Positions 25,464 to 45,129 of a stretch of 64,000 nt of DNA are shown here, one piece after another; the first letter of the stretch is position 1; every line of letters begins with the position of its first letter. The stretch is from a virus (taxonomy: Duplodnaviria; Caudoviricetes). The notes beneath the pieces are model-generated. The model saw only the letters and a program-made list of their open reading frames with translations. It was not told the DNA's origin and did not search any database. The translations under genes were made by a program, and so were the position numbers. The stretch lies in IMG/VR virus record IMGVR_UViG_3300021375_000006, one strand, 5' to 3'.

Positions 25464-26672
25464 TTAAAATAATGCTGATGCGTAGATCAGGTTAGTGTCT
25501 AATGTTTGTAGTCCAATTGCTTTTAATACTCTATTAAGTGGATCTATCATACATTTTTCAAATTGTGTATCAAAATCAACTTGTGGTGCAATCTCATAAG
25601 GATGTTCACCGGGTAGATATGCATAAACTTCTGAGATTGGTGTTTTACAGTTGTAAATTTTTAACTTCTCACCATTACCAATTACTTTATACTTATTCTT
25701 ATATTTTTGATTTTGATTTAAAATATAATTATAGTAGCCAGCTGCTTTTACGTTAGCTGGACATTTTAGTCCTACTTGAAATTCAATTTGATCGTCGACA
25801 ATATACTTTTCAATATTATTAGTTCTACGATTAAATGAAATGTCATCGACATCTGCTAGTTGAAATTCTTTTTTAGATGCTTTCATAAATGCAACTAATT
25901 CTTGTAATTCTTCAGCACCGGGGGTTTTTTGTGATTTAAACAAAATCCTAAGTGCTTCTACTAATTTCTCTCTAGCAAATTTTGGAGTTGAGGATTGAAT
26001 AGTATCAAATCCAATAGTCTTTACTTTCTTTAGGGACTTATGTCTATCAGTAACTTCTAGCTTATCATCCCATGCAATGTTTTGAATATACTTTTTCTTA
26101 GACATCCAAATACCATTATATGCTAAAGATTCTAGTTCAAAGAATAAGAAGTTATCTGTGTTTCTAGTATCAGCATACTTCTTCATACATGCTGTAATAT
26201 AATCCTTAAGTCTAAATGCGTAGAATGCTAAGATAAACTCATCAATTGGTAGAGCTTTAGCGTCATCATTCCAAACAATAGTTTCATATAGATCTTGAAA
26301 CTGTACGTAACAAGAATCTGTATCAATATAGATTACTGCAGGCTTTTCAACTTTACCTTTTACTGTTAAGCCGAATTGCTCATGTACTTTAGTATCTTTA
26401 TGCCAAAACTCTTGACAATACTTATTTAAGATAGACTCAGAGTAGAGGATAGCATTTTTACCCTGTTTTGTAATAGACTCTGCAATATCTATATTAAAAA
26501 AGTGAAACCATTTGTTACCGAATGCACCGTAGATAGAGTTAAGAGTTAATTTTACTGCTTGTTCATAGGCAGTATATTTAGCAGACATCTGCTTGTAGTG
26601 GTCTACAAGCAGCCCTGCATCTTCTCTACTAAGTTGATCGATAGGTTTCTCAGTGAGTTTTGTTATATCCAT
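25464..26672 (-). CDS. Family B DNA polymerase, C-terminal part (gp43B: motif B, motif C, thumb)
   Basis: QAVKLTLNSIYGAFGN (motif B), YIDTDS (motif C), KKKY. Confidence 0.93.
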   Translation of the reverse strand: MDITKLTEKPIDQLSREDAGLLVDHYKQMSAKYTAYEQAVKLTLNSIYGAFGNKWFHFFNIDIAESITKQGKNAILYSESILNKYCQEFWHKDTKVHEQFGLTVKGKVEKPAVIYIDTDSCYVQFQDLYETIVWNDDAKALPIDEFILAFYAFRLKDYITACMKKYADTRNTDNFLFFELESLAYNGIWMSKKKYIQNIAWDDKLEVTDRHKSLKKVKTIGFDTIQSSTPKFAREKLVEALRILFKSQKTPGAEELQELVAFMKASKKEFQLADVDDISFNRRTNNIEKYIVDDQIEFQVGLKCPANVKAAGYYNYILNQNQKYKNKYKVIGNGEKLKIYNCKTPISEVYAYLPGEHPYEIAPQVDFDTQFEKCMIDPLNRVLKAIGLQTLDTNLIYASALF

Positions 26673-26673
26673 A

Positions 26674-27417
26674 TTAAGCCGTTTGGCAAGTAGATACTGT
26701 TAATAGTGTGTTTGATTCTGTAGATTGGAATACTAGCTTAGAGTCAGTAACGTGTACTTTTTGTTCTTCTCTATCTAATAGGTTTAAGTACTTTTTGTAA
26801 ACTGTTACTGTACCTTCTCCATTAGATTCTGGATTAATTACTGCATTAAATGATTTACCATTTACAGCAACACCTTTACCATTTGCCTTTACGCTAAATG
26901 TTTCTTCACTATCAAGTCCAAATAAGTTCTTTACTTTATTAATAGTATGTGTATCGATATTAAAGCTAAATTTAGTATTATCTACTGCGAAGATAGCGTC
27001 TTGTTGTGCTGGAGTTAAGTCTTTAAAACCTAATGAAGGTTCTGAACAAGCAAGAGTAATTTCTAATTCATCATTGTACATTCTTAAAGATGATGCGATT
27101 AACTCGCCCTCTTGTTCAATAAATTCTAACTCACCTTTAATAGCATCGCTTTCAAAGTGTTTAATAGCATCAATTACTTTTGAACCTTCAAAGAAGGCAA
27201 CTTTCATTTCTGCATCTGTGTCTGGCCATTCGCTTACTTGGAAAATCTTATCACAGGCTACAGAATGTGATTTTACTGCATCTCGTTGTGGAAGATAAAC
27301 CGCTGAGTGGATTTGGCCGTTTTGGATTTTCATATAGACAAAAGAGTCTATAAGCTTTACTCGGTTGATAAACCCAGTTAAAGCGTGTTGGTCAATTCGA
27401 TCAATTTGTAGTTTCAT
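26674..27417 (-). CDS. Probable DNA sliding clamp (gp45/PCNA-like)
   Basis: 247 aa with a two-domain alternating strand/helix pattern, adjacent to the polymerase; inferred from size and context. Confidence 0.55.
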   Translation of the reverse strand: MKLQIDRIDQHALTGFINRVKLIDSFVYMKIQNGQIHSAVYLPQRDAVKSHSVACDKIFQVSEWPDTDAEMKVAFFEGSKVIDAIKHFESDAIKGELEFIEQEGELIASSLRMYNDELEITLACSEPSLGFKDLTPAQQDAIFAVDNTKFSFNIDTHTINKVKNLFGLDSEETFSVKANGKGVAVNGKSFNAVINPESNGEGTVTVYKKYLNLLDREEQKVHVTDSKLVFQSTESNTLLTVSTCQTA

Positions 27418-27557: not shown

Positions 27558-29378
27558 TTATCCGTCACATGCCAGACAATCTGGATCTGTAGCGGCTGCG
27601 GCAATATCGCCTCTTAAAACCGATTCAGTTCGCATGTAATAAAGAGTCTTCACTCCCTCTTTGTAAGCCTCTAAGTGTACTTTATTAATAAACTTAGTAT
27701 CGGCCTCTTTTGGGAATGCTAGATTTAAACTTACAGCCTGGTCAACATATTGTTGTCTAACACCGGCTTGTTTTACTAGATCTAGTTGATTAATTTCTTT
27801 AAATGTCTTAAAGATATTCTTTACTGGAATAAAAAGATCTTTATCTTTCTCTTCTAAATTATCAAATTTAGTCTGAGTAATAATATTATCTTTATCTAAA
27901 ATAGAAGTGGCTAGTTTTACATAGTAGTCTTCAATAAAGTCTAGTCCTTGTACAGAACCTCCGTCTTCTAAAATTTTATCCCAAGTTTTCTTAGAGTTTC
28001 TATTGATTAATTTTAAGAATTGCTCTAATACTGGATTCTTTCTAATAAAAGTACCCTTTGCTGTTTGTTCTGTAAACACGTTAGCAGCCCAAGGCTCAAT
28101 ACCTGCAGATACATTACCTGCTAGTTTTGAGTTGCTTACAGTTGGTGCCACGGCTCTCAGGTGAGTGTTTCTCATTCCTGTATTAACACACCATAGAGGT
28201 TCGCCATATTCATGTGCCATATCTCTAGATGCCTTTTCACTTTCCGTCTTTAACTGAGAAAAAATCTTGCGAGTCTCAAATTGAGCTGATAAGCCTTCAA
28301 ATGGAATACCTCTTTCTTGTAAATAAGTATGCCATCCTAAAACTCCAAGTCCTAGAGCTCTACCCTTTTCTGCAGATCTTACCGAGTTCTCAAACCCTCT
28401 CATGAATTTTGCTTTCTGAATAAATTCATCTAACACTCCATCCAGGAACCAAGTTGCTGTATAAACTAAATCAGTATCTTTCCACTCATCATATTTTGCT
28501 AAGTTAACTGAGGATAAACAACAAACAAAAGAGTGAGACTCATCTGTATGTAGAGTAATTTCAGAACAGATATTAGTCATATAAACTTTTAATCCGTTTT
28601 GCTTATACGCTTCTGGGTTTGCTCTATTAATATTACCTTTGAACATTACATAAGGCTCACCAGTTGCTTTTCTCTTTCTAAGTACTGCAACCCATCTTCT
28701 TCTAGCCTCTTTATCTCCAGCGTCAATCTTTTCCATAAAACCGTCAGGTACTACAACACATTGATGTAGGTTTAAAGATTGTCTATTGACATCTCCTTTT
28801 GGTTCTCTAATTTCTAACCATTCCCAGAAATCACCATGTTCAATATCGATATTGACAGATGCAGCTCCTCTTCTTACTGAACCCTGGTTCGTAGCCAAGA
28901 TTGTTGAGTCATAGATTTTAGTAAATGGAACTACACCATCCGATGTACCATTACCGGTAATCTTACTACCTGCTGGTCTGATTTGATTGATACCAATACC
29001 TACTCCACCACCATGTTTTGCTAATAACATCATCTCTAAGTTTTTAGATCCAATGTCGTGAATAGAGTCTGCTACGTCGATACCAAAACAAGAAATTGGA
29101 AGTCCTCTTTCTAGTCCTGTATTAGATAAAACTGGAGAGGCTAGGTTCAACCAGCCTTTCCAGATATAATCAAAAAATTTGCTTGCTAATTCAGGTTTAC
29201 CTAAACGTCTTGCTACTGTAGTTGAAACTCTCCAGTATGCGTCCTTTGGTTTCTCGTCACCAAATAGGTAACCTGCTGATATTGTTTTAACATAAACTTC
29301 GGTGTTTGCCCAAAGTGGAAAGTCCACTCCCAGTTCCCAACCGAGATGTTCTCCTTGGTTTTTTATTTTGTCTGCCAT
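27558..29378 (-). CDS. nrdA: Class Ia ribonucleotide reductase alpha subunit (no ATP cone evident)
   Basis: PISCF, VRRGAA, NICSEI, CCLSSVNL, APTVSNS, GIEP, KTLYY, C-terminal CLAC. Confidence 0.97.
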   Translation of the reverse strand: MADKIKNQGEHLGWELGVDFPLWANTEVYVKTISAGYLFGDEKPKDAYWRVSTTVARRLGKPELASKFFDYIWKGWLNLASPVLSNTGLERGLPISCFGIDVADSIHDIGSKNLEMMLLAKHGGGVGIGINQIRPAGSKITGNGTSDGVVPFTKIYDSTILATNQGSVRRGAASVNIDIEHGDFWEWLEIREPKGDVNRQSLNLHQCVVVPDGFMEKIDAGDKEARRRWVAVLRKRKATGEPYVMFKGNINRANPEAYKQNGLKVYMTNICSEITLHTDESHSFVCCLSSVNLAKYDEWKDTDLVYTATWFLDGVLDEFIQKAKFMRGFENSVRSAEKGRALGLGVLGWHTYLQERGIPFEGLSAQFETRKIFSQLKTESEKASRDMAHEYGEPLWCVNTGMRNTHLRAVAPTVSNSKLAGNVSAGIEPWAANVFTEQTAKGTFIRKNPVLEQFLKLINRNSKKTWDKILEDGGSVQGLDFIEDYYVKLATSILDKDNIITQTKFDNLEEKDKDLFIPVKNIFKTFKEINQLDLVKQAGVRQQYVDQAVSLNLAFPKEADTKFINKVHLEAYKEGVKTLYYMRTESVLRGDIAAAATDPDCLACDG

Positions 29379-29387
29379 AATTTAATT

Positions 29388-30389
29388 TTAGTCGAATAAG
29401 TCGTCTTCGTCCCAGTTTTCACCTTCGCCAGCTTTAGAATAATCTGTAGATCTGATAGCGAAGAAATCTGTGTGGGTATGACCACCAGTTAAGTGGTAGA
29501 ACCAATCCAGTTCTCCAGCAGAATCTTCATCGTAATCGAATGCTGGTTCGTAACCAAGCTCTTGTAACTTTTCGTTAACTCTCTTAGTGATAAAGTTCTT
29601 AAGGTCTTTAGCTTTTAAGTTATCTAGATCTCCTTGTTCGAACATCTTATCGATAAACTTATGCTCTAATTCCTTAATAAGCTCTCCTGCTTTTAATACG
29701 TCGGATTGTACTGATTGTTTCAAGTCTGGGTACTCTTCACACATGTGTCTAAATAATCTACAACCCATTCTAGAGTGTAGAGATTCATCACGTACTGACC
29801 ACTTCATTTGTTGGCCAACACCTTTTAATAAGTTTCTCATTTGGAATGAGTATAAAACTGCAAAAGAACTATAGAGTGAGCAACCCTCTGCAAACGCCGA
29901 AAAAATAGCAAGAGATCTAGCAACCTCTTTTCTAGCGGTCGCATTAAACTTCAAATCTTCGTGAGTATAAGGAGCTGTTGTTTGAGTTAATAGTTCAAAT
30001 TTATCTGCAGTTGCAGGTTCATGTAAAAATGCTTCAAAGTCTTCAAGACCTAATGTCTCGTTTAAGTACGAGTATGCTGTTGCGTGGATAGTTTCCTGCG
30101 AGCCAAACATCATTGCCATCTGTTTGATTTCATGTTTTGGAAACCAAGTTGTAACATATTGAGTCCAGTAATCTGATACAGCACATTCGGTTTGAGCAAA
30201 ACCTAATAGGATATTACCTACTAAGTGTTTTTCGTGAGGTAAAAGATTTTCATTCCAATCTTTAACATCACCCTGCATTGAGATTTCTGTGTGTAACCAA
30301 AAGGCTTGGGCTTGTTTTAGCCAACCTTCTGTATAATATTCTGGATATTCAAATGGTTTAAAGGCAATTCTTTCTGTGAATAATGACAT
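29388..30389 (-). CDS. nrdB: Class Ia ribonucleotide reductase beta subunit
   Basis: FKPFEYP, W..TEI, ETIHATAY (radical Tyr), EGCSLYSSF, RDESLH, DFFA. Confidence 0.97.
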   Translation of the reverse strand: MSLFTERIAFKPFEYPEYYTEGWLKQAQAFWLHTEISMQGDVKDWNENLLPHEKHLVGNILLGFAQTECAVSDYWTQYVTTWFPKHEIKQMAMMFGSQETIHATAYSYLNETLGLEDFEAFLHEPATADKFELLTQTTAPYTHEDLKFNATARKEVARSLAIFSAFAEGCSLYSSFAVLYSFQMRNLLKGVGQQMKWSVRDESLHSRMGCRLFRHMCEEYPDLKQSVQSDVLKAGELIKELEHKFIDKMFEQGDLDNLKAKDLKNFITKRVNEKLQELGYEPAFDYDEDSAGELDWFYHLTGGHTHTDFFAIRSTDYSKAGEGENWDEDDLFD

Positions 30390-30554: not shown

Positions 30555-31961
30555 TTAGAGGTTAAATTTTTTTTCGATTTCATGCGCTTTTTCATAATAT
30601 GTGTAAGAAGTTTTCTTATAGTCTTTTCTTTGGTCATATAGATCTGCTAAAATCTTTTTAAGAATACTATCTTTCTTCTGATATACTACGCCATTCTCAC
30701 AAACAATTACTGATTCATCTTTACGACGCTCAGCTATTTGCGATTCCTCTACCATTTCAACGAATGAATCAGGTGAGATATTAAACTGCCTCATGATGGA
30801 TGGATATAGCGATGCGAAGTCAAATGCACTCACACCACCATAATATCCAACAATTGGTTGTTTAACAAAAGCACCCTCGTACTTACTATCCTTCTTACCA
30901 TCCTCTTTGTCGTATTCTACACCGATACGTTTACCCTGTTCGGTTAGTTTACGAGCCATTAGAGATTCGGTAACAGCCACTGGTGAAGCGGCTTTATATA
31001 GAGGCATTCTAGTTATTGTTGCTAAAGTAAGCAGTACTTCCATCGATCTAAGCTTTTGATCGATATAGTAAACTAGACAGGAGTCAACCACATTATAGAA
31101 AACATACTTTTGAAAGTCGTTTTCATAGAGGTCTTGTAAGCTACCACTATATTGTATTTTACTTATACCCTCAAGGACTGCACCAGAAACAAATGCTAAT
31201 GCATTAGATTCTTTTACTGCAACCGATCTATCATATTTATCGTACAATTGCATGTAGTCCAAAATACCCATGTGAAGTGGGCGAGAGTCTTTTTTATCAA
31301 GAGCACCAGTACAAGCAACTTCTGTTAAATCAATTTGTAAGATTTTACATCTGTTGACAATATACTGCCAGTCATAATTGATAAAATTCCAACCTGTCAT
31401 CATAGGAAATTTAGGTAAAAACTTATGCAAGAAAGCGTAGACCATGTCATATTCATTCTTGAATTTGTAATAACTAAATTCCCAATCAGTATCATACCCA
31501 TTAAAATGAGCATTTGTATCGGATTCAATCTTATTAATTTGATCGGCCGAAAGATCTTTAAGACCCAATACAATTGCTTTTCTTTCTGGAGTAATAATAG
31601 AAAAGGTTAAGATTCTAGACTTAGCCTCTTCAGGTTTCGGGAAGCCATCAACAATCTCTGTCTCAATATCGACAAAGTATGTTCGTGGCATATTGAACTC
31701 AAAGATTTCATCTTGGTCTTTTTGTGGTAGACCATCCATGAAATAAAGAAGTGAAAACTTATTAAAAGATCTAGAGATAGACTTCTTAACATGGCGACCA
31801 TCCCAGTTTCTAGCTGTTGCGTCTTTCCATCTATCGTTATCTTTAGCTACAACCCAGTTTTGAAACTTGTCAATGTTGTATCTTTTAAAGGCAACTTCAC
31901 CCTGTTTATCGTAATATGATACGATTACTTCTTTCTCTTTTTGTTCAATATCTAATAGCAT
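30555..31961 (-). CDS. Family B DNA polymerase, N-terminal part (gp43A: 3'-5' exonuclease, motif A)
   Basis: FVDIET (ExoI), TGWNFINYDWQY (ExoII), YNVVD (ExoIII), YEGAFV, FDFASLYPSIMRQFNISPD (motif A). Confidence 0.93.
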   Translation of the reverse strand: MLLDIEQKEKEVIVSYYDKQGEVAFKRYNIDKFQNWVVAKDNDRWKDATARNWDGRHVKKSISRSFNKFSLLYFMDGLPQKDQDEIFEFNMPRTYFVDIETEIVDGFPKPEEAKSRILTFSIITPERKAIVLGLKDLSADQINKIESDTNAHFNGYDTDWEFSYYKFKNEYDMVYAFLHKFLPKFPMMTGWNFINYDWQYIVNRCKILQIDLTEVACTGALDKKDSRPLHMGILDYMQLYDKYDRSVAVKESNALAFVSGAVLEGISKIQYSGSLQDLYENDFQKYVFYNVVDSCLVYYIDQKLRSMEVLLTLATITRMPLYKAASPVAVTESLMARKLTEQGKRIGVEYDKEDGKKDSKYEGAFVKQPIVGYYGGVSAFDFASLYPSIMRQFNISPDSFVEMVEESQIAERRKDESVIVCENGVVYQKKDSILKKILADLYDQRKDYKKTSYTYYEKAHEIEKKFNL

Positions 31962-32425
31962 TAATATCCTCGGTTTTGACGGTCATGGTTTTCTGCATTC
32001 TTTGCCATGTACAGGTTAACAATATCTTTACTTGTCATACCGATAGAAATTGCAAAGTTCATATAGAAATGCAAACCATCAATCCATTCATAGAATAATT
32101 CTAATTTATCAGCTTCAGAAAGATCTTCGATCTTCATTTCGGCTGCTTGAGCATTAGTACTCTTCCAGTATTTCCATGCACCTGAGGCAATACCGTCGTT
32201 GATACCTCCAAGGGCATCAAACATTTCATTTAATTCGTCTGACATTGCGTGTTTATTTACACACCAAAAGTCTGCGATTTGTTTTAAGTTCCAACCTGTA
32301 AAGTCGAAACCTAAACGCTTTTGTAGTTCCACTTGCTTATTATAGATTAAGCCAAGTGTGTCTTCCGCTTCTGAATGAAAGTCTTGGACTTCCAAATCTG
32401 CACATTTGTTATCTGCGTTCGCCAT
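31961..32425 (-). CDS. Dimeric (all-alpha) dUTPase / dCTPase (gp56-like)
   Basis: ELNEM...WKYWK...EWIDGLHF...Y..KNAENHDRQ. Confidence 0.85.
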   Translation of the reverse strand: MANADNKCADLEVQDFHSEAEDTLGLIYNKQVELQKRLGFDFTGWNLKQIADFWCVNKHAMSDELNEMFDALGGINDGIASGAWKYWKSTNAQAAEMKIEDLSEADKLELFYEWIDGLHFYMNFAISIGMTSKDIVNLYMAKNAENHDRQNRGY

Positions 32426-32454
32426 ATATTTTTATTTAATTGTTATAGTTAGAT

Positions 32455-33351
32455 TTACTTATCTGTTTCAAGTATTTCGCCCCAAGCTCTTTCGGACTTT
32501 GTTAACGATTTTGTGTTAATATCTTTTGGTTTTGGATCTCCACCTACATTCCAGAACCAGGCACCAGGAGATCCATGTTTAGTCATGAACTCCCAAGCTT
32601 TAGCATCGTAGTTCATAGCCGATGGGAATGGTGGATTATACTGTGGGTCTACATCTTGTGTAAATGCTTTTGGATGAGACCATATAGTTGCATTACCTCT
32701 TTCACCCTTCTTGATATTTCTTGCTACTGCAACTGCGTTAAACTTAGCGTCAGGCCAAGCTATTTGTAAAGAGCGTTGTAGAACTCCCGTAGAGATCGCT
32801 GACCATACTTCTTCTGGATAACCATATTTCTCTGCAAGATCGTGCGCGACCTTCACAGCGGCTGCTGTAACCAATTCATGGCGAAGTCCTAAAGGAATAA
32901 AAAATGCTCCGTTATCTTCTGCCCATTTCTTAGCATGAGCATTTAAGACTGGCATTGCTGCGATTCTCTTGAATTTCATTTCAGCTCCCATCTCAACACA
33001 AATTGCCTGATGGTCTGAAATCTCTTTTTGACTTGGACTAAATAGTACAAGTTTCTTATTATACTTATTTGCTAGGTATGCAAGTGAGATACCTGCAAAT
33101 CCATATCTAGGTTGAACATAGACTAGAGTATCTTGTTTACAAGTACTAACTAGAATATCTCCAAATCTACACTTAGAACCAAAACCCATTAGGTCTTCTC
33201 TGACTACTTTAAATCCATCATGGTCTACTAATTGTGGAGCCTCAAATGGATCTTGCCAATCACCTGCTAAATCCAACCATGCCTGTTTATTCGGCATCAT
33301 CAGATTTAGATCCTGGTTCATAAGTATATCTGTGTGTTTATTATGCGCCAT
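32455..33351 (-). CDS. PLP-dependent enzyme, fold type II (Trp synthase beta / cysteine synthase-like)
   Basis: VVREDLMGFGSKCR (PLP lysine), GFAGISLAY, FFIPLG, SAISTGVL, WFWNVG. Confidence 0.75.
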   Translation of the reverse strand: MAHNKHTDILMNQDLNLMMPNKQAWLDLAGDWQDPFEAPQLVDHDGFKVVREDLMGFGSKCRFGDILVSTCKQDTLVYVQPRYGFAGISLAYLANKYNKKLVLFSPSQKEISDHQAICVEMGAEMKFKRIAAMPVLNAHAKKWAEDNGAFFIPLGLRHELVTAAAVKVAHDLAEKYGYPEEVWSAISTGVLQRSLQIAWPDAKFNAVAVARNIKKGERGNATIWSHPKAFTQDVDPQYNPPFPSAMNYDAKAWEFMTKHGSPGAWFWNVGGDPKPKDINTKSLTKSERAWGEILETDK

Positions 33352-34570
33352 AAAATTCTGCTACTTTTTTCTTATATGCTTCTACTGTTAAACCAGCTTC
33401 TGCAATTATTTTATCATCACTAGGATGGTGTTTCATTCCGTTAAATGTTTCTACTAGACCTAAGTCTAACATTGCCTTTTGTCTACCGAATGGATGGTCT
33501 TTAATTACTGAAGAATTCCATACGCCGTCCATATCAATATGTGCATAGTCAGCTCCTGGTCTCATGTAATTCTCAATCCATCTAATAAAGTCACATGCTA
33601 CGTCCTCTGCATTATACGGCAGAGAACCTGTCTGTTCATATATTTTTGTCATCACTGCATCTAGGAAAGGTTCTGATTTTTTACCTTTACCTTCTACGGG
33701 ATCTGCAAGGTAACCAATACATTCTATTGCATTCGTACCATAGTAGAACATTGATTCCCTGTTAACATACTGTGGAAACCAATCTGCTATATCTGCTAAA
33801 ACTGCTGCATATTGGAATTTATATTGTCTTAATCCGTTTGCAACATTCCAATCAAACATCCATTGACCCAATTCTCTTAGGTCTTTCTTACCACCCTCTT
33901 CTAAGAACTTAGCCATGTCTCTAGCTAAGCGTGGTGCGAATTCACATAGGAAATAGTCGCCGCCTCTCTTGTAAGTAAACTGAGGGCCTTCGAACCCCGT
34001 CATCCCAACAAAGACTTCCTCGTTTTGCTGTGGAATCGGGGGTTTTGGGAAAGCTGGGAATTGATACCCAACAGAAGTGTAGAATGACTTGGTTGCTGCT
34101 TTCACTTGCTCACACATTTGTTCTATAGAATCAGATTGCCACAAGTCGAATAGTAGCGTGTTGTGATAGCCACTTGGTTTAGTAGCATAGTTAATTGCAG
34201 ATCCACATACTCTGTGCAGGATGAATATGTAGAGCCATTCTGGTAGGCCGAAGACTTCTTGTTTACCGGTCCAATTGGTAGCGACATCTTTGCGCTGTTC
34301 CGTAACTAAACCAGCCTGCATTCTTGACCAATACGGATGTGCTTCAGTCCAACCGTAAAAAACATCATTCACGATTTGACTAAACCCAGCATACTTCCTT
34401 TCAACCACATCATACAGCTCGATATGTTCCATCAGCGGATCGTCCATCCCGGACTCGGCATGTGGAATGTGGCCTAGGTTACTCTTTTTCTGCTGGTCTA
34501 AGGCTAACTCATAATACCTGATAAACTCATCATAGTATTTAGTAGTCTTAATTTTACACGTCGTACTCAT
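33341..34570 (-). CDS. Putative amino acid/amine:DNA transferase (aGPT-Pplase-like)
   Basis: DPLMEHIELYDVVERKYAG aligns by eye with aGPT-Pplase1 DPIL..Y.F.NV.RE.D; ILHRVCGS; C-terminal NAEDVACDFIRW resembles .IE..LCE..KY; coupled to the PLP enzyme gene. Confidence 0.6.
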   Translation of the reverse strand: MSTTCKIKTTKYYDEFIRYYELALDQQKKSNLGHIPHAESGMDDPLMEHIELYDVVERKYAGFSQIVNDVFYGWTEAHPYWSRMQAGLVTEQRKDVATNWTGKQEVFGLPEWLYIFILHRVCGSAINYATKPSGYHNTLLFDLWQSDSIEQMCEQVKAATKSFYTSVGYQFPAFPKPPIPQQNEEVFVGMTGFEGPQFTYKRGGDYFLCEFAPRLARDMAKFLEEGGKKDLRELGQWMFDWNVANGLRQYKFQYAAVLADIADWFPQYVNRESMFYYGTNAIECIGYLADPVEGKGKKSEPFLDAVMTKIYEQTGSLPYNAEDVACDFIRWIENYMRPGADYAHIDMDGVWNSSVIKDHPFGRQKAMLDLGLVETFNGMKHHPSDDKIIAEAGLTVEAYKKKVAEFYGA

Positions 34571-34736
34571 TCACTTCTAGTATTTCCCAATTTAAGGCTC
34601 TCCGGTTTCTTTGATATTGTTCCATCGACCATTCAATATTGTCTGTTGTCAACTCAATAGTATATGGAGCATCTCCGCGACCGTAAGTTTTTTCTATTGC
34701 AAGATTAGGTGTTATTTTAATTTTATATGTTTTCAT
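34554..34736 (-). CDS. Small hypothetical protein
   Basis: 60 aa ORF, coupled. Confidence 0.65.
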   Translation of the reverse strand: MKTYKIKITPNLAIEKTYGRGDAPYTIELTTDNIEWSMEQYQRNRRALNWEILEVNEYDV

Positions 34737-34909
34737 ATTTGGTTGCCAAGTATCTGTCTCGTATTTAATTCAGAAGCTATTGCAGCTGCTGCCGATAACA
34801 GATGATTAAGGTTATGCTTTAATAAACTATCAGAGATATTCTCATCTCCATAAGTCTGTAAACTATTATGTGCAATTTCTACACTTTGTTTAATACCGTT
34901 TATATCCAT
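34733..34909 (-). CDS. Small hypothetical protein (58 aa)
   Basis: Translated by hand: MDINGIKQSVEIAHN...RQILGNQI; ATGA overlap with the next gene. Confidence 0.65.
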   Translation of the reverse strand: MDINGIKQSVEIAHNSLQTYGDENISDSLLKHNLNHLLSAAAAIASELNTRQILGNQI

Positions 34910-34919
34910 ATTATTATTT

Positions 34920-35084
34920 TTAATTATTCCATCTTCTTAAGATATTCCAAACAATTAATATATTACAAATTACAGCCTGTAATACAATAAGAGTCCTAAA
35001 TATCGCAACAGCATCTGCTTGTTTATCGTCCTCTCCGGCTTTTTCACCAAGCGCTCTTGCCCAGTACTTCCAAAGCTTTTTCAT
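34920..35084 (-). CDS. Small single-pass membrane protein (54 aa)
   Basis: MKKLWKYWARALGEKAGEDDKQADAVAIFRTLIVLQAVICNILIVWNILRRWNN. Confidence 0.7.
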   Translation of the reverse strand: MKKLWKYWARALGEKAGEDDKQADAVAIFRTLIVLQAVICNILIVWNILRRWNN

Positions 35085-35085
35085 T

Positions 35086-36162
35086 TTAGAAAAGTGCTTG
35101 AGTTACTGGCTTTAATTTCTGATTGGGTTCATCTTTTACTAAATCCCAACGATAATACTCACGAGCGATATGAACTGACTTAGGCTTTTCCATTACGTCA
35201 AATGTTAACTCTCCAAAAGAGTTTAAAAAGACTGCTGGGTGTTGCCATGTTAACCATCCATTTCTCTCGCACATTGCTTCTACTAACTTGTTAAATTCTT
35301 TTACAAGTTCAGTTCTCTCTGCCCAAGTACCAGCAAAAGGAGTACCTTTATAGTAGCCGGTTTTTGGTAGAGGTCTAGACTCATTCTCAATTGGAAGAGC
35401 CTGAATAACTTCAATATTTTCGATTTCTAAATCGATTAATTGTTTTTCATAATTAGATACCATATCCTTTAAAGATTTCGATGGATTATCTTGTCTCATT
35501 AGGTGGTGTCTTATATCTATATTCCCTAGATATATGCGTAGTGTTGTAATATTTTCTGGTACATAAGATCTAATACCTCTTCTTAAAGTTCCAAAAAGAG
35601 TTAGGCCATCATGTCTATCAGTCATGTAGCCGGGTGTATATTGGCTAAAACTATGTGAGTCTCCAAAACAGAGTTTATCTGTATTTTGTATTCTATCTAC
35701 TTTAGGAATACTAGCACATATTGCCTTAGCTTCTTCTATTTGTGTCTCAAGTGTTTTAAAAAGATCTGAACCTGTCTTTAAACGTTTCTCAATTAGAGTA
35801 CCTACACAAGGCATATCATGGTGGAGCGAATACATTCGTATACCGGGAGCGAACATTCTAATGATTTGATGGTATAAGTCATCGTTCGCCCCACCGAAGA
35901 TATTAAAATTGCCTTTAAATTCCATTCCGTGTTCAATAAGAATCACGTCGAAATCGTCTGCCTTCCAAGCTGAGTTATCTGTAATTATAGAAACATTGGA
36001 GTAACCAGCATGTTTTAATTGATTTGCTAGATGGAATGCCCATCCAGATTTATGTGAAGTTAGTTTGCTACTAAGTTTTCCAACTAGTGCAGAAATACCG
36101 ACACGTATATTAGTGTCTTTCTCTAGATCTGTAAAATAGACTAGGTTATTATTTGTCTCCAT
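35086..36162 (-). CDS. Protein with C-terminal SGNH/GDSL-like hydrolase domain
   Basis: CFGDSHS (block I Ser), GLTL (block II), YLGNID (block III), C-terminal EKPKSVH (catalytic His candidate). Confidence 0.6.
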   Translation of the reverse strand: METNNNLVYFTDLEKDTNIRVGISALVGKLSSKLTSHKSGWAFHLANQLKHAGYSNVSIITDNSAWKADDFDVILIEHGMEFKGNFNIFGGANDDLYHQIIRMFAPGIRMYSLHHDMPCVGTLIEKRLKTGSDLFKTLETQIEEAKAICASIPKVDRIQNTDKLCFGDSHSFSQYTPGYMTDRHDGLTLFGTLRRGIRSYVPENITTLRIYLGNIDIRHHLMRQDNPSKSLKDMVSNYEKQLIDLEIENIEVIQALPIENESRPLPKTGYYKGTPFAGTWAERTELVKEFNKLVEAMCERNGWLTWQHPAVFLNSFGELTFDVMEKPKSVHIAREYYRWDLVKDEPNQKLKPVTQALF

Positions 36163-36481
36163 ATCCAGCGTCTGCGTCAGTTAAATTAATTGGCTTTTCA
36201 GTTTCACCATAGCCATACTTCTTAATATAATTGTCAAGACCGCCGATGTATGCGACGGCATCTAGAAGATTATCTTCTTTATAGTTGTAAGAATGTCTGC
36301 TTAATTTAAGTGCGACAAGTGCTGCATACATATCGGAACCTGACCATTCTTTACCGGTCATTCCTGAACAGATCATCGCGGCACGTCTCATGCCTTCTTC
36401 GAAAGGACCGTACATACGTTCTTTCTCTTCGGATCTGTTGTTAATAATTTCGTCTGCTGTTTTTAGAATGTTCTTGCTCAT
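36149..36481 (-). CDS. DUF6378-like small phage protein (possible nucleotide-metabolism role)
   Basis: ILKTADEIIN.R...YGPF...ALKLSR...DNLLDAVAY pattern. Confidence 0.6.
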   Translation of the reverse strand: MSKNILKTADEIINNRSEEKERMYGPFEEGMRRAAMICSGMTGKEWSGSDMYAALVALKLSRHSYNYKEDNLLDAVAYIGGLDNYIKKYGYGETEKPINLTDADAGYGDK

Positions 36482-36534
36482 AAAATAACTAATTAAATCT
36501 TAATTATTATAGAGAAGAATGCTAGTTTGTTTCA

Positions 36535-37218
36535 CTAATTAATATTAATATGGATAATAACTTCGTTGTAGTATTCTAGGAAACGTTCGTTCCATAGGTT
36601 CCATTTAATATCAGTACCATCTATTGCATAAATTTCATGGTTAGGGAAAAGTTTAAGATATAAATCTCTAAAATGTCTGAATTTTTCTTTAGACTCTGGT
36701 GTGTTTAGATGCCACTCTCCGACTACAAAATCTACATTATCTTTTATCCAAAATAAATTATCGACGTTAAAAATATCATATTCTCCTCCTTCGCAATCTG
36801 TTTTTAAGAAGTTAATTCTATCAATATTATTTTCTTTTATTAGGGTATCGAACCTAATAGATGGTATTTCTATATTTTGTCCATTAGCACCAAATACTTC
36901 ACTAATAGTAATAGTACCATCTACTGGTCCGATACCCTTTTCAATAATGGTTACATTATCTTGGTATACATTTTCCTTTAGAGTCTCATGTTCTAAATGA
37001 GATGGCTCTACGCAAATAACTTGTTTTGGATCTTTATTAAGAATACTATATGTAAATGGACCGATGCTTGCTCCTATATCTAAAACAACATCATCGGCTT
37101 TTACCTCTCTAACCTGTTCATAACATTTATCAATAAAGATCTCTTGAACTAAAGAGTTTTTATGCATTTTAGCTAGATTGGTAAATTCGTCCATCCAGCC
37201 CCACTTAAAAATAGCCAT
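36535..37218 (-). CDS. FkbM-family SAM-dependent methyltransferase
   Basis: VVLDIGASIGPF, CVEP, FLKTDCEGGEY. Confidence 0.9.
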   Translation of the reverse strand: MAIFKWGWMDEFTNLAKMHKNSLVQEIFIDKCYEQVREVKADDVVLDIGASIGPFTYSILNKDPKQVICVEPSHLEHETLKENVYQDNVTIIEKGIGPVDGTITISEVFGANGQNIEIPSIRFDTLIKENNIDRINFLKTDCEGGEYDIFNVDNLFWIKDNVDFVVGEWHLNTPESKEKFRHFRDLYLKLFPNHEIYAIDGTDIKWNLWNERFLEYYNEVIIHININ

Positions 37219-37267
37219 ATAATTTTATTGGTATTATCTAGTTATACTCAAGAATGCTAGTTTGTTT

Positions 37268-37945
37268 CTAGAGTTCGTAGATAACCGGGACTCCATTTTC
37301 AATACAAAGATACTCATAAGGAAGTGTATCAATAAAATAGTGGTTATCATCATAGTCAATTTGATGCATGTGTGTATGTCCAGCGATTTGAATAATAGTA
37401 TCATCAAGAGGATTACGTCTTAGTGCTTCAGGTCTAATCCACATTGGACCTTCACCATCATAATTACCATACATTTCCATACCGCTATGATTAAATGATC
37501 TTTTATCATAAGACCAAAGATCATTAATCTGTTCTGAAATATTACCATCTTCTGGGAAATTGGCTTTATACCATTCTTTCGAAACACCAGCATGTGTAAA
37601 TAAAAACTTATCTACTTGATATGCAACTTGTAAGTGGTGCTTATTTTCTCTTAATAGTTCACTAATTTCAGCTGCGTGCCAAGCACTCCAACCACCATAC
37701 CTTCCTCCACAATCTGCCATGTAATGGAAATCATGGTTACCAATCAACATAGTTACTTTAATCTTTGACGCTTCTTTCCACTCAATGATTTCTTTAAAAT
37801 TAAAAATACACTCCGCATGGTTTCTAGTAAAAGAATCAAAGTAATCTCCGATGAATACAAATTCAGTCGCATCGCCATGTGCCTGCATAACTTGCTTCCA
37901 CTTGTTACAGCCATGAATATCTCCGATAACTACAATCTTACTCAT
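37268..37945 (-). CDS. Calcineurin-like metallophosphoesterase
   Basis: GDIHG, GDYFD, GNHD, THAG, GHTH. Confidence 0.92.
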   Translation of the reverse strand: MSKIVVIGDIHGCNKWKQVMQAHGDATEFVFIGDYFDSFTRNHAECIFNFKEIIEWKEASKIKVTMLIGNHDFHYMADCGGRYGGWSAWHAAEISELLRENKHHLQVAYQVDKFLFTHAGVSKEWYKANFPEDGNISEQINDLWSYDKRSFNHSGMEMYGNYDGEGPMWIRPEALRRNPLDDTIIQIAGHTHMHQIDYDDNHYFIDTLPYEYLCIENGVPVIYEL

Positions 37946-38099
37946 TGTCTTTGTTTTTGTGTTTCTTCTTTCTTGAGTACTTGGTTTTATCAGGCACTGT
38001 TTGTTGTGTCATCTTCTTAGAAATATGATGTGCAGCCTCACCTGGAGACCATCCTCCGTTAAAGTCTAATTTGTCATCATGTTTCTTTTTCTTGTTCAT
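37938..38099 (-). CDS. Small basic protein (53 aa), first gene after an early-type promoter
   Basis: Translated by hand: MNKKKKHDDKLDFNGGWSPGEAAHHISKKMTQQTVPDKTKYSRKKKHKNKDNE. Confidence 0.7.
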   Translation of the reverse strand: MNKKKKHDDKLDFNGGWSPGEAAHHISKKMTQQTVPDKTKYSRKKKHKNKDNE

Positions 38100-38121: not shown

Positions 38122-38147
38122 AGCCTGACATAAAAAAATATCAGGCT
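38122..38147 (-). terminator. Terminator of the 38-48 kb late operon, overlapping an early promoter
   Basis: AGCCTGA-N12-TCAGGCT followed by a T run on the minus strand. Confidence 0.75.
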
Positions 38148-43269: not shown

Positions 43270-45129
43270 TTATATATTCTTTAAAAAATCATCGAAGGTT
43301 AGGAATTCTGGTTGTGCAGATTCTGCAGCAACACCCATCGAGTCTTCTAATTTCATTTTAAGTTCTCCATACATACCATGTATATCCTTAGGAGTTAATT
43401 TCTTAAATAGTCTTTCGTCACCATCAAGCATTGCGTTTCTAACCTGAGTTGCTGAAATATTCTTGCCTGATCTTGGAATTTCAAATAAACCAAAATCGTC
43501 TCTTACACCTAGATCGTCTCTGTATTCTTGTTTATCTGCTTGATAACTATAGACTTTCATTCTATCAGTTCCAGTTCCCCATAATACTGGCTCGTATTGT
43601 GGTCTTAATTCATTAAACATTTTATCAATTGCTGCAGTAGGTAAAATCTTTACATCTTCAATTGGATAAGAAGATTTTAATTTTTGTAACATTGATAGTT
43701 GAGTCTCTTCGTCGTAAGGTCTCTTGAATGCATCTTCTGCTTTCTTAGTTTTAGACTTAATTAAAAAGATAACTACTGGATAACCGTTTTGTTTATAGAT
43801 AGTTTCAATAACTTTAGCGTGTCCTAATGTAAATGGTTGAAATCTACCAACAAACATATTTACAGGCTTCTTACCTTGATCTTTATACTTAACAGTTAAG
43901 CCTTCCATGATTGGACTAACTTGAGCTGAAATTTTTTGGTTTAATAAATATTGTTTAAAATCCATTACGTCTGATTCATTTGCTTTTGCCATTATTAAAC
44001 CCTCAATGGTTTCAACGATCTCGTTGATCTGCTCCATTAAATCTTTATTAATAAGGTCGGTTTCTTTAGTTCTCTTTTTTCTAAAAGAGCCTAATACAAT
44101 CTTAAATAACTCAGATAATATCTTATCTTGTACTAAAGTAAGTGTCTTTTCGTTTTGAATAAACTTATTATTTAATTCAAACATAGGAGATTCAGAAAAG
44201 TCTGCAGAGTCAAATTTAGCACCAATATATTTTGTAGCATTTTTTTCTACATAATTATTAAAAATAGATGACATTAATTCTAAATATCTTCTATCTACCT
44301 TTCCTTCTTTTAATTCTATTGATGAGAAATCAAATTGTACTAAATGTTCTACAACATCTAAAATTGTAATTTGATACATGTCTGATGGTTTTCTTGGATC
44401 CATCGGTTTTTTATTAAACTTCTCTAATTTAAAAGATTGTAATTCTGTTCCGTCATGAAAATTAATAATAAACCCTGCAACATCTTTTGAAAGATCGTTC
44501 ATTAAAGCAGATTGCTTCATATTCTCATTAAAAATACCGAATACTGTTCTTGTAAAGCTAGGCTTCTCAAAGTCTTCAAATGTCTGTTCAAATTCATTAA
44601 CCGACATTGCAAGAATTTGTTTTAATCTATCCTTTTGACCTGAGTCAAGTTGACCTTCAAATAATATAGGTGGTTTTGAAACATTTAGTTTATCCGCCCA
44701 CTTATTAAGTATTTTGGTATCTCTAATTACCTTTCTAACTTTATTAGGATTAGATGGTTGTAAAACTTGTATATGCGTTAAAATTAAATTTGATTCTGGT
44801 AAAACATCATACTCCACATCAATTGTTTTATTATCGCCAAGATATTCAAATCCAAACTTCCAGTCAAATGGCATATCTTCTATAACTTCTTTAGAAACAG
44901 ACTTAAAGTGGCGAATTGCGTTCTCATAGTATCTGACAATTGTACGATCTACTATATCCATTGGTTGCTTAGAACCAGATTTATAGTATGCAAAATCAGT
45001 ACCTTGTCTTCTTGCATGAAAAGATGAACCGTTGATTTTCTCAGTCACAATACATTTGTGGTTAAGTAGTTTATCAACGTCTGCTGTGTTAGCTCCTTCG
45101 AAATATGTTTTTAAATTGTCTAATGCCAT
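43270..45129 (-). CDS. Ligase-fold nucleotidyltransferase-like domain fused to an HxGH-type (cytidylyltransferase-like) domain
   Basis: N-terminal VTEKINGSSF; C-terminal FVGRFQPFTLGH...GTDR...ISATQVRNA. Confidence 0.75.
   Translation of the reverse strand: MALDNLKTYFEGANTADVDKLLNHKCIVTEKINGSSFHARRQGTDFAYYKSGSKQPMDIVDRTIVRYYENAIRHFKSVSKEVIEDMPFDWKFGFEYLGDNKTIDVEYDVLPESNLILTHIQVLQPSNPNKVRKVIRDTKILNKWADKLNVSKPPILFEGQLDSGQKDRLKQILAMSVNEFEQTFEDFEKPSFTRTVFGIFNENMKQSALMNDLSKDVAGFIINFHDGTELQSFKLEKFNKKPMDPRKPSDMYQITILDVVEHLVQFDFSSIELKEGKVDRRYLELMSSIFNNYVEKNATKYIGAKFDSADFSESPMFELNNKFIQNEKTLTLVQDKILSELFKIVLGSFRKKRTKETDLINKDLMEQINEIVETIEGLIMAKANESDVMDFKQYLLNQKISAQVSPIMEGLTVKYKDQGKKPVNMFVGRFQPFTLGHAKVIETIYKQNGYPVVIFLIKSKTKKAEDAFKRPYDEETQLSMLQKLKSSYPIEDVKILPTAAIDKMFNELRPQYEPVLWGTGTDRMKVYSYQADKQEYRDDLGVRDDFGLFEIPRSGKNISATQVRNAMLDGDERLFKKLTPKDIHGMYGELKMKLEDSMGVAAESAQPEFLTFDDFLKNI

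What the first reader, a model, noticed from the sequence alone, without database searches (positions are those of the whole stretch)
31961..38099. Candidate DNA hypermodification cluster with an unusual set of tailoring enzymes
Seen: contiguous dimeric dUTPase/dCTPase, fold-II PLP enzyme, aGPT-Pplase-like transferase, SGNH-like protein, DUF6378-like protein, FkbM methyltransferase and metallophosphoesterase, directly upstream of the polymerase N-half. Established: in phages ViI, M6, phiW-14 and SP10, aGPT-Pplase enzymes transfer amino acids or amines onto phosphorylated 5-hmdU in DNA, and in ViI and M6 a PLP enzyme decarboxylates the adduct. Inference: a related pathway, possibly extended by acylation (SGNH) and methylation (FkbM) to give an undescribed base. 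Caveat: the expected dUMP hydroxymethylase and 5-hmdU DNA kinase are not in this window.
Basis: partly seen in the sequence, partly recalled or inferred. Interest (0 to 1): 0.75.

Follow-up and report, generated by a model that had tools for sequence, protein, structure and literature searches.

The report
Marine phage cytosine hypermodification gene cassette
An uncultured marine T4-like phage carries a conserved gene set, distantly related to the enzymes that attach amino acids to thymine in other phages' DNA, that is tied to the hydroxymethylcytosine pathway and lacks the usual DNA kinase, so its DNA probably carries an undescribed cytosine modification.

Summary

**Gene identities**
- 33341-34570 (409 aa) matches no Pfam or PHROG family. 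It folds confidently, and its best solved match is the PaMx11 amino-acid:DNA transferase (8z2n, Z 10.1). It keeps an invariant ExxxC motif with the spacing of that enzyme's catalytic Glu243/Cys247.
- 35086-36162 (358 aa) has a true SGNH domain. In other phages it is fused to the 409-aa family.
- The PLP enzyme is fold type II.
- The "dUTPase" is a T4 gp56-type dCTPase.

- **The target base is probably 5-hydroxymethylcytosine, not 5-hmdU.** Relatives with the same cassette encode T4-type dCMP hydroxymethylases. In one contig this gene lies two genes upstream of the cassette. Two of these relatives also keep ThyA or ThyX.
- **No 5-hmdU DNA kinase domain was found** in five related records.
- **The FkbM methyltransferase is a strain-specific insertion.** It is 735 nt long, flanked by an exact 19-nt repeat, and absent from 50 of 50 related loci.
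- **The phosphoesterase is variable** (14 of 50 loci).

The conserved core is DUF6378, the SGNH protein, the transferase-like protein, the PLP enzyme and the dCTPase.

I found no description of such a cassette in the papers searched. This scan has noted it before on other genomes. The chemistry is inferred, not shown.

The parts
31961..32425 (-). T4 gp56-type dCTPase/dUTPase (all-alpha NTP pyrophosphatase, 154 aa)
   Evidence: Pfam dUTPase_2, 34 bits. phrog_173, E 5e-19. tblastn gives 35-40% identity to gp56/dCTP pyrophosphatase of T-even-type phages. Syntenic in 31 of 50 related loci.
32455..33351 (-). Fold-type-II (ACC-deaminase-like) PLP enzyme, 298 aa
   Evidence: PALP, E 5.5e-6, below the cut-off. 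phrog_7093, E 1e-41. Invariant R51, D53, G58 and K60 ('REDL..GSK') across 33 orthologues. Next to the 409-aa gene in 43 of 50 loci. A 36%-identical domain lies inside an 810-aa 'DNA modification methylase' of Erythrobacter phage R6L.
33341..34570 (-). Divergent amino-acid:DNA-transferase (AADT/aGPT-Pplase)-like enzyme with an HhH-glycosylase fold, 409 aa ('P409')
   Evidence: No Pfam or PHROG hit. AF2 model pLDDT 93. Best PDB match is 8z2n PaMx11 gp46, Z 10.1, followed by AGOG/OGG/MutY. BFVD and ESM Atlas neighbours are named AADT or carry HMUDK_hel/ADDT. E322 and C326 are invariant in 61 homologues.
34554..34736 (-). Small conserved ORF (60 aa), function unknown
   Evidence: Found between the 358-aa and 409-aa genes in 31 of 50 related loci. 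No family hit.
35086..36162 (-). Two-domain protein ('P358'): N-terminal alpha/beta domain of unassigned fold plus a C-terminal SGNH hydrolase/acyltransferase domain
   Evidence: phrog_13881, E 2e-56. AF2 model pLDDT 88. SGNH matches at Z 12.5 over residues 160-347. S169 (GDSH), D216 and H331 are invariant and N214 nearly so. Fused N-terminally to P409-like domains in seven metagenomic proteins. Adjacent to the dCMP hydroxymethylase in G006.
36149..36481 (-). DUF6378 small protein (110 aa), first gene of the conserved core
   Evidence: Pfam DUF6378, 38.6 bits. Syntenic in 42 of 50 loci. Preceded by a conserved promoter-like site at 36535-36506.
36535..37218 (-). FkbM-family methyltransferase. 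A strain-specific inserted cassette, not part of the conserved core.
   Evidence: Pfam Methyltransf_21, 47.8 bits. No tblastn hit in any of 50 related loci. The alignment with L005 and L013 shows a clean insertion, flanked by an exact 19-nt direct repeat at 36515-36533 and 37250-37268.
37268..37945 (-). Calcineurin-like metallophosphoesterase. A variable neighbour with no evidence of a pathway role.
   Evidence: Pfam Metallophos, 53 bits. Present in 14 of 50 related loci.
38122..38147 (-). Terminator-like hairpin upstream of the gene block
   Evidence: 10-bp stem followed by a T run. A second such site, at 30470-30454, follows the polymerase N-half.
30555..31961 (-). N-terminal half of the split family-B DNA polymerase (context). 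Its start overlaps the dCTPase stop.
   Evidence: Pfam DNA_pol_B_exo1 and DNA_pol_B; phrog_2062, E 3e-77. The C-terminal half is at 25464-26672, with ribonucleotide reductase genes between the two halves.

Best explanation
Window 31961-36481 (minus strand) is the conserved core of a post-replicative DNA hypermodification cassette. It belongs to an abundant, uncultured lineage of marine T4-like phages, and the target base is most likely 5-hydroxymethylcytosine.

**Proposed course**
1. The gp56-type dCTPase, together with a T4-type dCMP hydroxymethylase encoded elsewhere in the genome, replaces dC by 5-hmdC during replication. This is inferred from the T4 homologues.
2. On DNA, the 409-aa HhH-fold enzyme flips out the base. 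Cys326 attacks C6 of the pyrimidine, assisted by Glu322. The oxygen substituent on the 5-methylene leaves. An amino acid or amine then adds to the exocyclic methylene. This is inferred by analogy with the AADT enzymes.
3. No 5-hmdU DNA kinase is present. The two-domain SGNH protein is fused to the transferase-like domain in other phages, much as the P-loop kinase is fused to its helical domain in 5-HMUDK. It is the best candidate for preparing the hydroxymethyl group, for example by transient O-acylation, or for tailoring it. This step is speculative.
4. The ACC-deaminase-like PLP enzyme then decarboxylates or otherwise edits the attached amino acid, as ViI gp226 and M6 gp52 do. This is inferred.

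DUF6378 has an unknown role. The FkbM methyltransferase and the phosphoesterase are not conserved parts of the pathway.
For: **The 409-aa protein (P409)**
- The AF2 model has pLDDT 93. The best solved match is 8z2n, PaMx11 gp46, at Z 10.1 and rmsd 3.9 over 211 residues, ahead of AGOG, OGG and MutY.
- The BFVD top hit is 57% identical and named 'Amino acid:DNA transferase domain-containing'.
- ESM Atlas neighbours carry HMUDK_hel or ADDT.
- E322 and C326 are invariant in 61 homologues of 23-82% identity. The spacing equals Glu243/Cys247 of PUGT (PMC11472151).

**Conserved gene order**
- The order DUF6378, P358, P409, PLP, dCTPase, polymerase holds across 50 IMG/VR loci.
- P409, PLP and usually P358 stay linked even in phages where P409 is only 58-66% identical.
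- Seven metagenomic proteins are P358-P409 fusions.
- A paralogue carrying the same E-D-x-x-C motif sits beside P409 in many relatives.

**The link to cytosine**
- TS-like genes occur in G002, G006, G010 and L045. Of the two sought directly there, G002 and G006, G002's was compared with solved structures, and its best match is T4 dCMP hydroxymethylase 1b49, E 3e-20.
- All four have Asp at the L143, D169 and N177 positions. PMC13326640 gives this as the 5hm-dCMP signature and D169N as the 5-hydroxy-dCMP signature.
- In L045 the gene order is hydroxymethylase, dCMP deaminase, P409, paralogue, P358-like, PLP.
- In G006 the hydroxymethylase is adjacent to a P358 homologue.
- G002 has a canonical ThyA and G006 a ThyX.
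- The dCTPase is a gp56 orthologue.

**The PLP enzyme**
- Lys60 is invariant.
- A homologous domain lies inside a phage protein annotated 'DNA modification methylase'.
- ViI gp226 was modelled on the same ACC-deaminase-like template, 1j0a (PMC8989533).
Against: - P409 fails the Pfam ADDT model. Only 1 of 61 family members reaches E 1e-3.
- Profile-profile comparison with the gp46 clade is not significant.
- I could not verify by superposition that C326 and E322 coincide with PUGT Cys247 and Glu243.
- No hydroxymethylase lies in this window, and the window's own genome is not held. The link to hmC therefore rests on relatives (87%, 78%, 66% and 63% P409 identity).
- No enzyme that makes a leaving group has been demonstrated.
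- The N-terminal domain of P358 is unassigned.
- gp56-type enzymes also hydrolyse dUTP.
- There are no chemical data on the DNA.
Confidence: 0.6

Rival explanations
1. This is a thymidine hypermodification pathway: 5-hmdU in DNA is phosphorylated, an aGPT-Pplase adds an amino acid, and PLP, SGNH and FkbM tailor it.
For: P409's nearest solved relative acts on 5-PmdU. A fold-II PLP enzyme is adjacent, as in ViI and M6 (PMC8989533). gp56-type enzymes also cleave dUTP (established for T4).
Against: The TS homologues of four related records have the dCMP signature (Asp at the N177 position) and best match T4 dCMP hydroxymethylase. No HMUDK_hel was found in five related records, one of them 88% complete. 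PaMx11 kinase and AADT queries find nothing in the window or the loci. Two relatives keep ThyA or ThyX. FkbM is an insertion absent from relatives.
Confidence: 0.08
2. The base is 5-hmC, but the group added is not an amino acid. P358 is the real transferase, adding for instance a sugar or acyl group to the hydroxymethyl. P409 serves only as its DNA-binding, base-flipping module, as HMUDK_hel does for the kinase. The PLP enzyme makes or edits the donor.
For: The P358-P409 fusions mirror the kinase plus helical domain architecture. Atlas neighbours of P409 carry HMUDK_hel more often than ADDT. The P358-like fold also occurs in giant-virus proteins that carry glycosyltransferase domains. Phosphodiester-glycosidase and LOG-like genes sit in some variant cassettes.
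Against: E322 and C326 are invariant across the family and its paralogue. That is hard to explain for a purely binding module. No nucleotide-sugar enzyme is conserved in the core.
Confidence: 0.17
3. This is not a modification pathway. P409 is an HhH DNA glycosylase for repair or host-DNA attack, and the PLP, SGNH and DUF6378 genes are unrelated auxiliary metabolic genes that merely share an early/middle operon.
For: The HhH-glycosylase fold, with AGOG, OGG and MutY at Z 4-8. No family-level sequence match. No chemical evidence.
Against: The linkage of P409, PLP and P358 persists across phages that differ in everything around it, and includes gene fusions. The best structural match is a transferase, not a glycosylase. 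The cassette is adjacent to the hydroxymethylase in L045 and G006.
Confidence: 0.1

Closest known systems
Thymidine hypermodification clusters of phages M6, ViI, PaMx11, PhiW-14 and SP10 (5-HMUDK kinase, aGPT-Pplase2/AADT of Pfam PF18724, and a PLP decarboxylase in M6 and ViI) (PMC8989533, PMC11472151)
   Same: An HhH-glycosylase-fold enzyme whose best solved match is PaMx11 gp46 (Z 10.1). An invariant Glu-x3-Cys motif. An adjacent fold-II PLP enzyme. A paralogous pair of transferase-like genes in many relatives. The location is among replication and nucleotide-metabolism genes.
   Different: No Pfam ADDT match. No 5-hmdU DNA kinase or HMUDK_hel. The linked TS homologue is of dCMP type, not dUMP type. 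Two relatives retain ThyA or ThyX. An SGNH two-domain protein is an obligatory partner, fused in some phages. The PLP enzyme has no BLAST-level similarity to any cultured-phage protein other than three records.
T4 hydroxymethylcytosine pathway (gp56 dCTPase, gp42 dCMP hydroxymethylase, alpha/beta-glucosyltransferases)
   Same: A gp56 orthologue lies in the cassette (35-40% identity). gp42-like enzymes with the Asp/Asp/Asp signature occur in relatives. The gene content around is T4-like (UvsX, gp32-like SSB, clamp loader, gp2, gp4).
   Different: No glucosyltransferase gene came up in the parts scanned. The transferase-like, SGNH and PLP trio stands instead as the candidate decoration machinery.
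5-hydroxycytosine arabinosylation pathway of RB69 and DLP3 (PMC13326640)
   Same: A TS homologue acting on dCMP in Straboviridae-like phages, followed by group transfer on DNA.
   Different: The diagnostic D169N substitution of 5-hydroxy-dCMP synthases is absent. All four TS homologues examined keep Asp.
SGNH O-acetylesterases and O-acetyltransferases (sialate O-acetylesterase, PatB/OatA, PAF-AH)
   Same: The fold of P358 residues 160-347 (Z 10-12.5), and conserved Ser, Gly, Asn and His positions.
   Different: There is an extra N-terminal alpha/beta domain. The two-domain form occurs almost only in viral proteins. It is fused or linked to a DNA-base-modifying family.

Membership tests
Amino acid:DNA transferase (Pfam PF18724 ADDT, formerly aGPT-Pplase2) | Match to the family HMM above threshold | tested here: not met
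   P409 has no Pfam hit, even at E 10. Only 1 of 61 homologues reaches ADDT, at E 1e-3. hhalign against a gp46-clade profile gives 1.5% probability.
Amino acid:DNA transferase (Pfam PF18724 ADDT, formerly aGPT-Pplase2) | Two-lobed helical HhH-glycosylase-derived fold like PUGT/gp46 (PDB 8z2n) | tested here: met
   8z2n_B is the top solved match: Z 10.1, rmsd 3.9, 211 residues. Foldseek BFVD hits include ADDT-named proteins, at E 8e-43 (57% identity) and E 6e-4. Atlas neighbours carry ADDT or HMUDK_hel.
Amino acid:DNA transferase (Pfam PF18724 ADDT, formerly aGPT-Pplase2) | Essential Cys with a nearby Glu (PUGT Glu243 and Cys247; the equivalent residues in M6 gp51 and ViI gp247) | tested here: inconclusive
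   E322 and C326 are invariant with the same i, i+4 spacing, and the motif is kept in the paralogue. Residue-level superposition on 8z2n could not be done.
Amino acid:DNA transferase (Pfam PF18724 ADDT, formerly aGPT-Pplase2) | Co-occurrence with a 5-hmdU DNA kinase (P-loop plus HMUDK_hel) and a dUMP hydroxymethylase | tested here: not met
   No PF18723 in five related records. The PaMx11 gp49 kinase finds nothing in the window or loci. The TS homologues are of dCMP type.
T4-type 5-hydroxymethylcytosine DNA pathway | gp56-type dCTPase | tested here: met
   35-40% identity over 86-97% of the protein to gp56/dCTP pyrophosphatase of T-even-type phages.
T4-type 5-hydroxymethylcytosine DNA pathway | dCMP hydroxymethylase with Asp at the ThyA L143 and N177 positions and Asp retained at 169 | tested here: inconclusive
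   Met in relatives G002, G006, G010 and L045. No such gene lies in this 64-kb window, and the window's own genome is not held.
SGNH hydrolase/acyltransferase superfamily (P358 C-terminal domain) | SGNH fold with conserved Ser (GDS block), Gly, Asn and His | tested here: met
   Z 12.5 to 4rsh, with many GDSL esterases and PatB/OatA also matched. S169 in GDSH, D216 of the GNID block and H331 are invariant; N214 is nearly invariant. The Pfam Lipase_GDSL hit is only E 0.23.
Fold-type-II PLP enzymes (Pfam PALP) | HMM match and a PLP-binding lysine | tested here: inconclusive
   PALP at 26.4 bits, below the 35-bit cut-off, E 5.5e-6. phrog_7093, E 1e-41. Invariant K60 in a REDL..GSK motif like that of the ACC-deaminase family. 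No PDB sequence hit at E 0.01.

The most novel reading that the evidence does not exclude
This would be a kinase-less, AADT-type hypermodification of cytosine. An SGNH-domain protein, working with (and in some phages fused to) a Cys-dependent HhH-fold transferase, takes the place of the 5-hmdU DNA kinase. It activates 5-hmC in DNA. An amino acid is then attached and edited by a PLP enzyme. The result would be an amino-acid-derived cytosine base that has not been described, in phages that are common in seawater.
Probability: 0.25. Interest if true: 0.85.

Novelty: new variant of a known kind. Interest (0 to 1): 0.72.

Why it matters
In the papers read here, the amino-acid:DNA transferases are described only for 5-hmdU-derived thymidine hypermodifications. 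The cytosine decorations described there are glycosylations.

A transferase-like, SGNH and PLP cassette tied to 5-hmC would extend amino-acid-type hypermodification to cytosine. It would point to a way of activating the hydroxymethyl group without a kinase. It would also bear on how DNA from abundant marine phages behaves towards restriction enzymes, CRISPR and sequencing chemistries.

The 409-aa family has more than 900 homologues at 90% clustering. This stretch occurs in seawater metagenomes of more than ten studies.

Tried and rejected
- **Sequence searches for P409.** megablast and tblastn against 50,697 GenBank phage records found no match. A PDB sequence search with the family profile found none at E 10.
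- **Direct comparison with known AADT enzymes.** hhalign of the family against PaMx11 gp46, alone and as a 31-sequence profile, was not significant. An HMM of the P409 family against M6 ORFs, and an HMM of the gp46 clade against the P409 family, found nothing.
- **Complex prediction of P409 with P358.** No verdict: score 0.04 against a mark of 0.32. This is not evidence either way.
- **N-terminal domain of P358.** A profile of residues 1-158 against PDB sequences gave only chance-level hits. An Atlas feature search gave none. All fold-search lists were filled by the SGNH domain.
- **DUF6378 and the PLP protein.** Neither gave a PDB sequence hit.
- **Nearest held record.** G001 is a 23-kb fragment without the cassette.
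- **Iyer et al. 2013,** the original aGPT-Pplase paper, is not in the held library.
- **Read laying.**
  - Contigs of two independent seawater DNA runs cover the stretch, including FkbM, without differences.
  - One low-depth X5 contig skips 36483-37374, with only 24 letters on the shorter side.
  - Contigs from two RNA libraries, one of them DNase-treated, cover most of the core.
  - Contigs cannot prove transcription.

Full report
**The observation.** Window 30.5-38.1 kb is one block of tightly packed minus-strand genes. It is bounded by terminator-like hairpins at 38147-38122 and 30470-30454. In order of transcription the genes are:
- a 54-aa ORF;
- a calcineurin-like phosphoesterase (37268-37945; Pfam Metallophos, 53 bits);
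- an FkbM methyltransferase (36535-37218; 47.8 bits);
- DUF6378 (36149-36481; 38.6 bits);
- a 358-aa protein, P358 (35086-36162; phrog_13881);
- three small ORFs;
- a 409-aa protein, P409 (33341-34570; no Pfam or PHROG hit, even at E 10);
- a PALP-like PLP enzyme (32455-33351; phrog_7093, E 1e-41);
- a dUTPase_2-family protein (31961-32425);
- the N-terminal half of a split family-B polymerase (30555-31961).

The rest of the window is T4-like. It holds ribonucleotide reductase genes between the two polymerase halves, UvsX, a DnaB-like helicase, SbcCD, a gp32-like SSB, a primase, a clamp loader, gp2-like and gp4-like proteins. The nearest cultured phage polymerases are under 47% identical. The window's own genome is not held. 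CheckV rates related IMG/VR records of 149 kb and 261 kb as 43% and 88% complete, so the genomes are probably about 300 kb.

**The 409-aa protein.** It has 933 homologues at 90% clustering, nearly all unnamed and marine, and 143 representatives at 50% clustering.
- An alignment of 61 homologues of 23-82% identity leaves nine invariant residues, among them E322 and C326, with D323 and D327 nearly invariant.
- The AF2 model is confident: pLDDT 93, pTM 0.91, mostly helical.
- Among solved structures the best match is 8z2n, the 5-PmdU glycinyltransferase gp46/PUGT of phage PaMx11. It scores Z 10.1 at rmsd 3.9 over 211 residues. HhH glycosylases follow: AGOG at 8.4, OGG at about 5 and MutY at about 4.
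- In BFVD the top hit (57% identity, TM 0.90) is named 'Amino acid:DNA transferase domain-containing protein'. Weaker hits are aGPT-Pplase1 and '5-hmdU DNA kinase helical domain' proteins.
- AFDB and ESM Atlas give the same picture.
- PUGT clamps the flipped thymine with Cys247 and binds the metal with Glu243 and Thr244 (PMC11472151). The Cys and the neighbouring Glu are essential in M6 gp51 and ViI gp247 (PMC8989533). P409 has the same Glu-x3-Cys spacing.

By sequence, however, membership fails. There is no Pfam ADDT hit, only 1 of 61 relatives reaches E 1e-3, and profile-profile comparison with the gp46 clade is insignificant. I therefore call P409 a new, divergent clade of the AADT/HMUDK_hel superfamily. 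I do not call it a member of PF18724.

**The conserved unit.** tblastn of all block proteins against 50 related IMG/VR loci gave these counts:

| Gene | Loci with a hit (of 50) |
|---|---|
| P409 | 50 |
| P358 | 46 |
| PLP enzyme | 43 |
| DUF6378 | 42 |
| 60-aa ORF | 31 |
| dCTPase | 31 |
| Polymerase N-half | 31 |
| Phosphoesterase | 14 |
| FkbM | 0 |

- Alignment with two relatives shows FkbM as a clean 735-nt insertion between the phosphoesterase stop and the promoter-like region of DUF6378. It is flanked by an exact 19-nt direct repeat at 36515-36533 and 37250-37268. No such repeat is expected by chance. The FkbM-bearing form is real: contigs of two independent seawater runs match it exactly.
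- Many relatives carry an extra 324-379-aa gene between P409 and the PLP gene. The P409 family HMM detects it, and the alignment runs through the same E-D-x-x-C motif. It is thus a paralogue, recalling the paralogous aGPT-Pplase pairs of the thymidine systems. The window lacks it.
- Seven metagenomic proteins of 639-790 aa are fusions of a P358-like N-terminal part and a P409-like C-terminal part. This gene-fusion evidence indicates that the two act together.

**P358 and the PLP enzyme.**
- The P358 model (pLDDT 88) has a C-terminal SGNH domain spanning residues 160-347. It scores Z 12.5 to GDSL esterases, and also matches sialate O-acetylesterase, PAF-AH and the peptidoglycan O-acetyltransferases PatB and OatA. 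S169 in GDSH, D216 of the GNID block and H331 are invariant, and N214 is nearly so.
- Its N-terminal alpha/beta domain stays unassigned.
- The two-domain shape occurs almost only in viral proteins. These include the N-terminal part of a 795-aa protein in the T4-like Aeromonas phages 31, 44RR2.8t and 25.
- The PLP protein keeps an invariant Lys60 in a REDL..GSK motif like that of the ACC-deaminase branch of fold type II. ViI gp226 was modelled on that same branch (1j0a; PMC8989533).
- Its only homologues in cultured phages are three records. In the two Erythrobacter phages, and partly in the third (Microcystis phage Mae-JY30), the match falls within a gene annotated 'DNA modification methylase' or 'DNA methyltransferase'. 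In Erythrobacter phage R6L it spans residues 373-630 of an 810-aa protein. That argues for a role on DNA.

**Which base.** The window has no TS-like gene, but relatives with the cassette do.
- G002 (P409 87% identical) has a canonical ThyA at 311 bits and a divergent TS homologue.
- G006 (88% complete) has ThyX and a divergent TS homologue, adjacent to a P358 homologue.
- G010 has one too.
- In contig L045 the gene order is TS homologue, dCMP deaminase, P409, paralogue, P358-like, PLP.
- The G002 protein's best PDB sequence match is T4 deoxycytidylate hydroxymethylase (1b49, E 3e-20), ahead of MilA and all thymidylate synthases.
- All four TS homologues have Asp at the ThyA L143 and N177 positions and keep Asp169. 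According to PMC13326640 that is the signature of 5hm-dCMP synthases, while 5-hydroxy-dCMP synthases have D169N.
- The cassette's 'dUTPase' is 35-40% identical to gp56 dCTPases.
- No HMUDK_hel domain exists in five related records. PaMx11's kinase, AADT, FAD enzyme and acetyltransferase find nothing in the window or the loci.

Together these results point to 5-hmC rather than 5-hmdU.

**Mechanism.**
- Shown: gene identities, folds, conserved residues, synteny and fusions.
- Inferred from homologues: dC is replaced by 5-hmdC. A Cys-dependent attack at C6 is followed by substitution at the 5-methylene. The attached amino acid is then edited by the PLP enzyme.
- Speculative: how the hydroxyl becomes a leaving group without a kinase. 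The SGNH protein is the best candidate. It stands to P409 as the P-loop kinase stands to its helical domain in 5-HMUDK (an Atlas row with AAA_28 plus HMUDK_hel). Direct acid-catalysed loss of water is an alternative. From my own knowledge, C5-methyltransferases can condense 5-hmC with thiols, which would make such a route plausible.
- The main rival keeps 5-hmC but makes P358 the true transferase and P409 its base-flipping module.

**Comparison and novelty.** Functionally the closest systems are the thymidine hypermodification clusters of M6, ViI, PaMx11, PhiW-14 and SP10. The precursor supply looks like that of T4. The combination differs in three ways: the base is cytosine, no kinase is present, and an SGNH partner is obligatory and sometimes fused. 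Three literature searches found no description of it. Earlier notes of this scan describe the same cassette in other genomes and reached the same reading. I consulted them only after forming mine.

**Occurrence.** The stretch occurs in seawater metagenomes of more than ten studies. Parts of it occur in metatranscriptome assemblies, one from a DNase-treated library. This is a hint of expression, not proof.

Noticed in passing
window 36515-36533 and 37250-37268 (FkbM gene 36535-37218): The FkbM methyltransferase is a 735-nt cassette flanked by an exact 19-nt direct repeat that duplicates the promoter-like region of the next gene. This resembles the mobile gene cassettes of T4-like phages. The FkbM-bearing form occurs unchanged in two independent seawater runs.
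   Followed up: yes
window 25464-26672 and 30555-31961: The family-B DNA polymerase is split into two genes about 3.9 kb apart. Both ribonucleotide reductase subunits (27558-30389) and an unknown 247-aa gene (26674-27417) lie between the halves. The same arrangement is seen in related loci.
   Followed up: partly
L015:11209-12297, L026:2633-3772, L042:11038-12144, L043:11148-12179, L045:4289-5272, L046:2074-3048: A second transferase-like family of 324-379 aa, 64-86% identical among very different phages and carrying an E-D-K-T-C motif, sits between P409 and the PLP gene in many relatives. It is absent from this window.
   Followed up: partly
L042:12095-12817; L043:9193-9795; L044:3054-3710; L043:13069-14034: Variant cassettes carry extra genes. 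These are a LOG/'lysine decarboxylase'-like SLOG protein between the paralogue and the PLP gene, NAGPA-type phosphodiester glycosidases upstream of P409, and an NAD-dependent sugar epimerase/dehydratase downstream. This suggests chemically different end products in different lineages.
   Followed up: no
L057:6061-8448 (Aeromonas phage 31 ORF233c) and 42 other phage records: Cultured T4-like Aeromonas phages (31, 44RR2.8t, 25, Aes508 and others) have a 795-aa protein whose first 335 or so residues are 36% identical to P358. The C-terminal 450 or so residues match nothing tested. These phages could serve as a culturable handle on the P358 module.
   Followed up: partly
L058 (Erythrobacter phage vB_EliS_R6L gp1, residues 373-630 of 810): A domain 36% identical to the window's PLP enzyme is embedded in a large protein annotated as a DNA modification methylase.
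   Followed up: partly
window 43270-45129: A 619-aa protein with a C-terminal cytidylyl/adenylyltransferase-like domain (phrog_3041/395) is conserved upstream of the block in 21 of 50 related loci. Its role is unknown.
   Followed up: no
L053:319-996 and L053:2180-3478 (record G002): The related 149-kb phage record encodes a ClpP protease and a ClpB/ClpA-type AAA+ unfoldase flanking its dCMP hydroxymethylase gene, with one small 105-aa ORF between ClpP and the hydroxymethylase.
   Followed up: no
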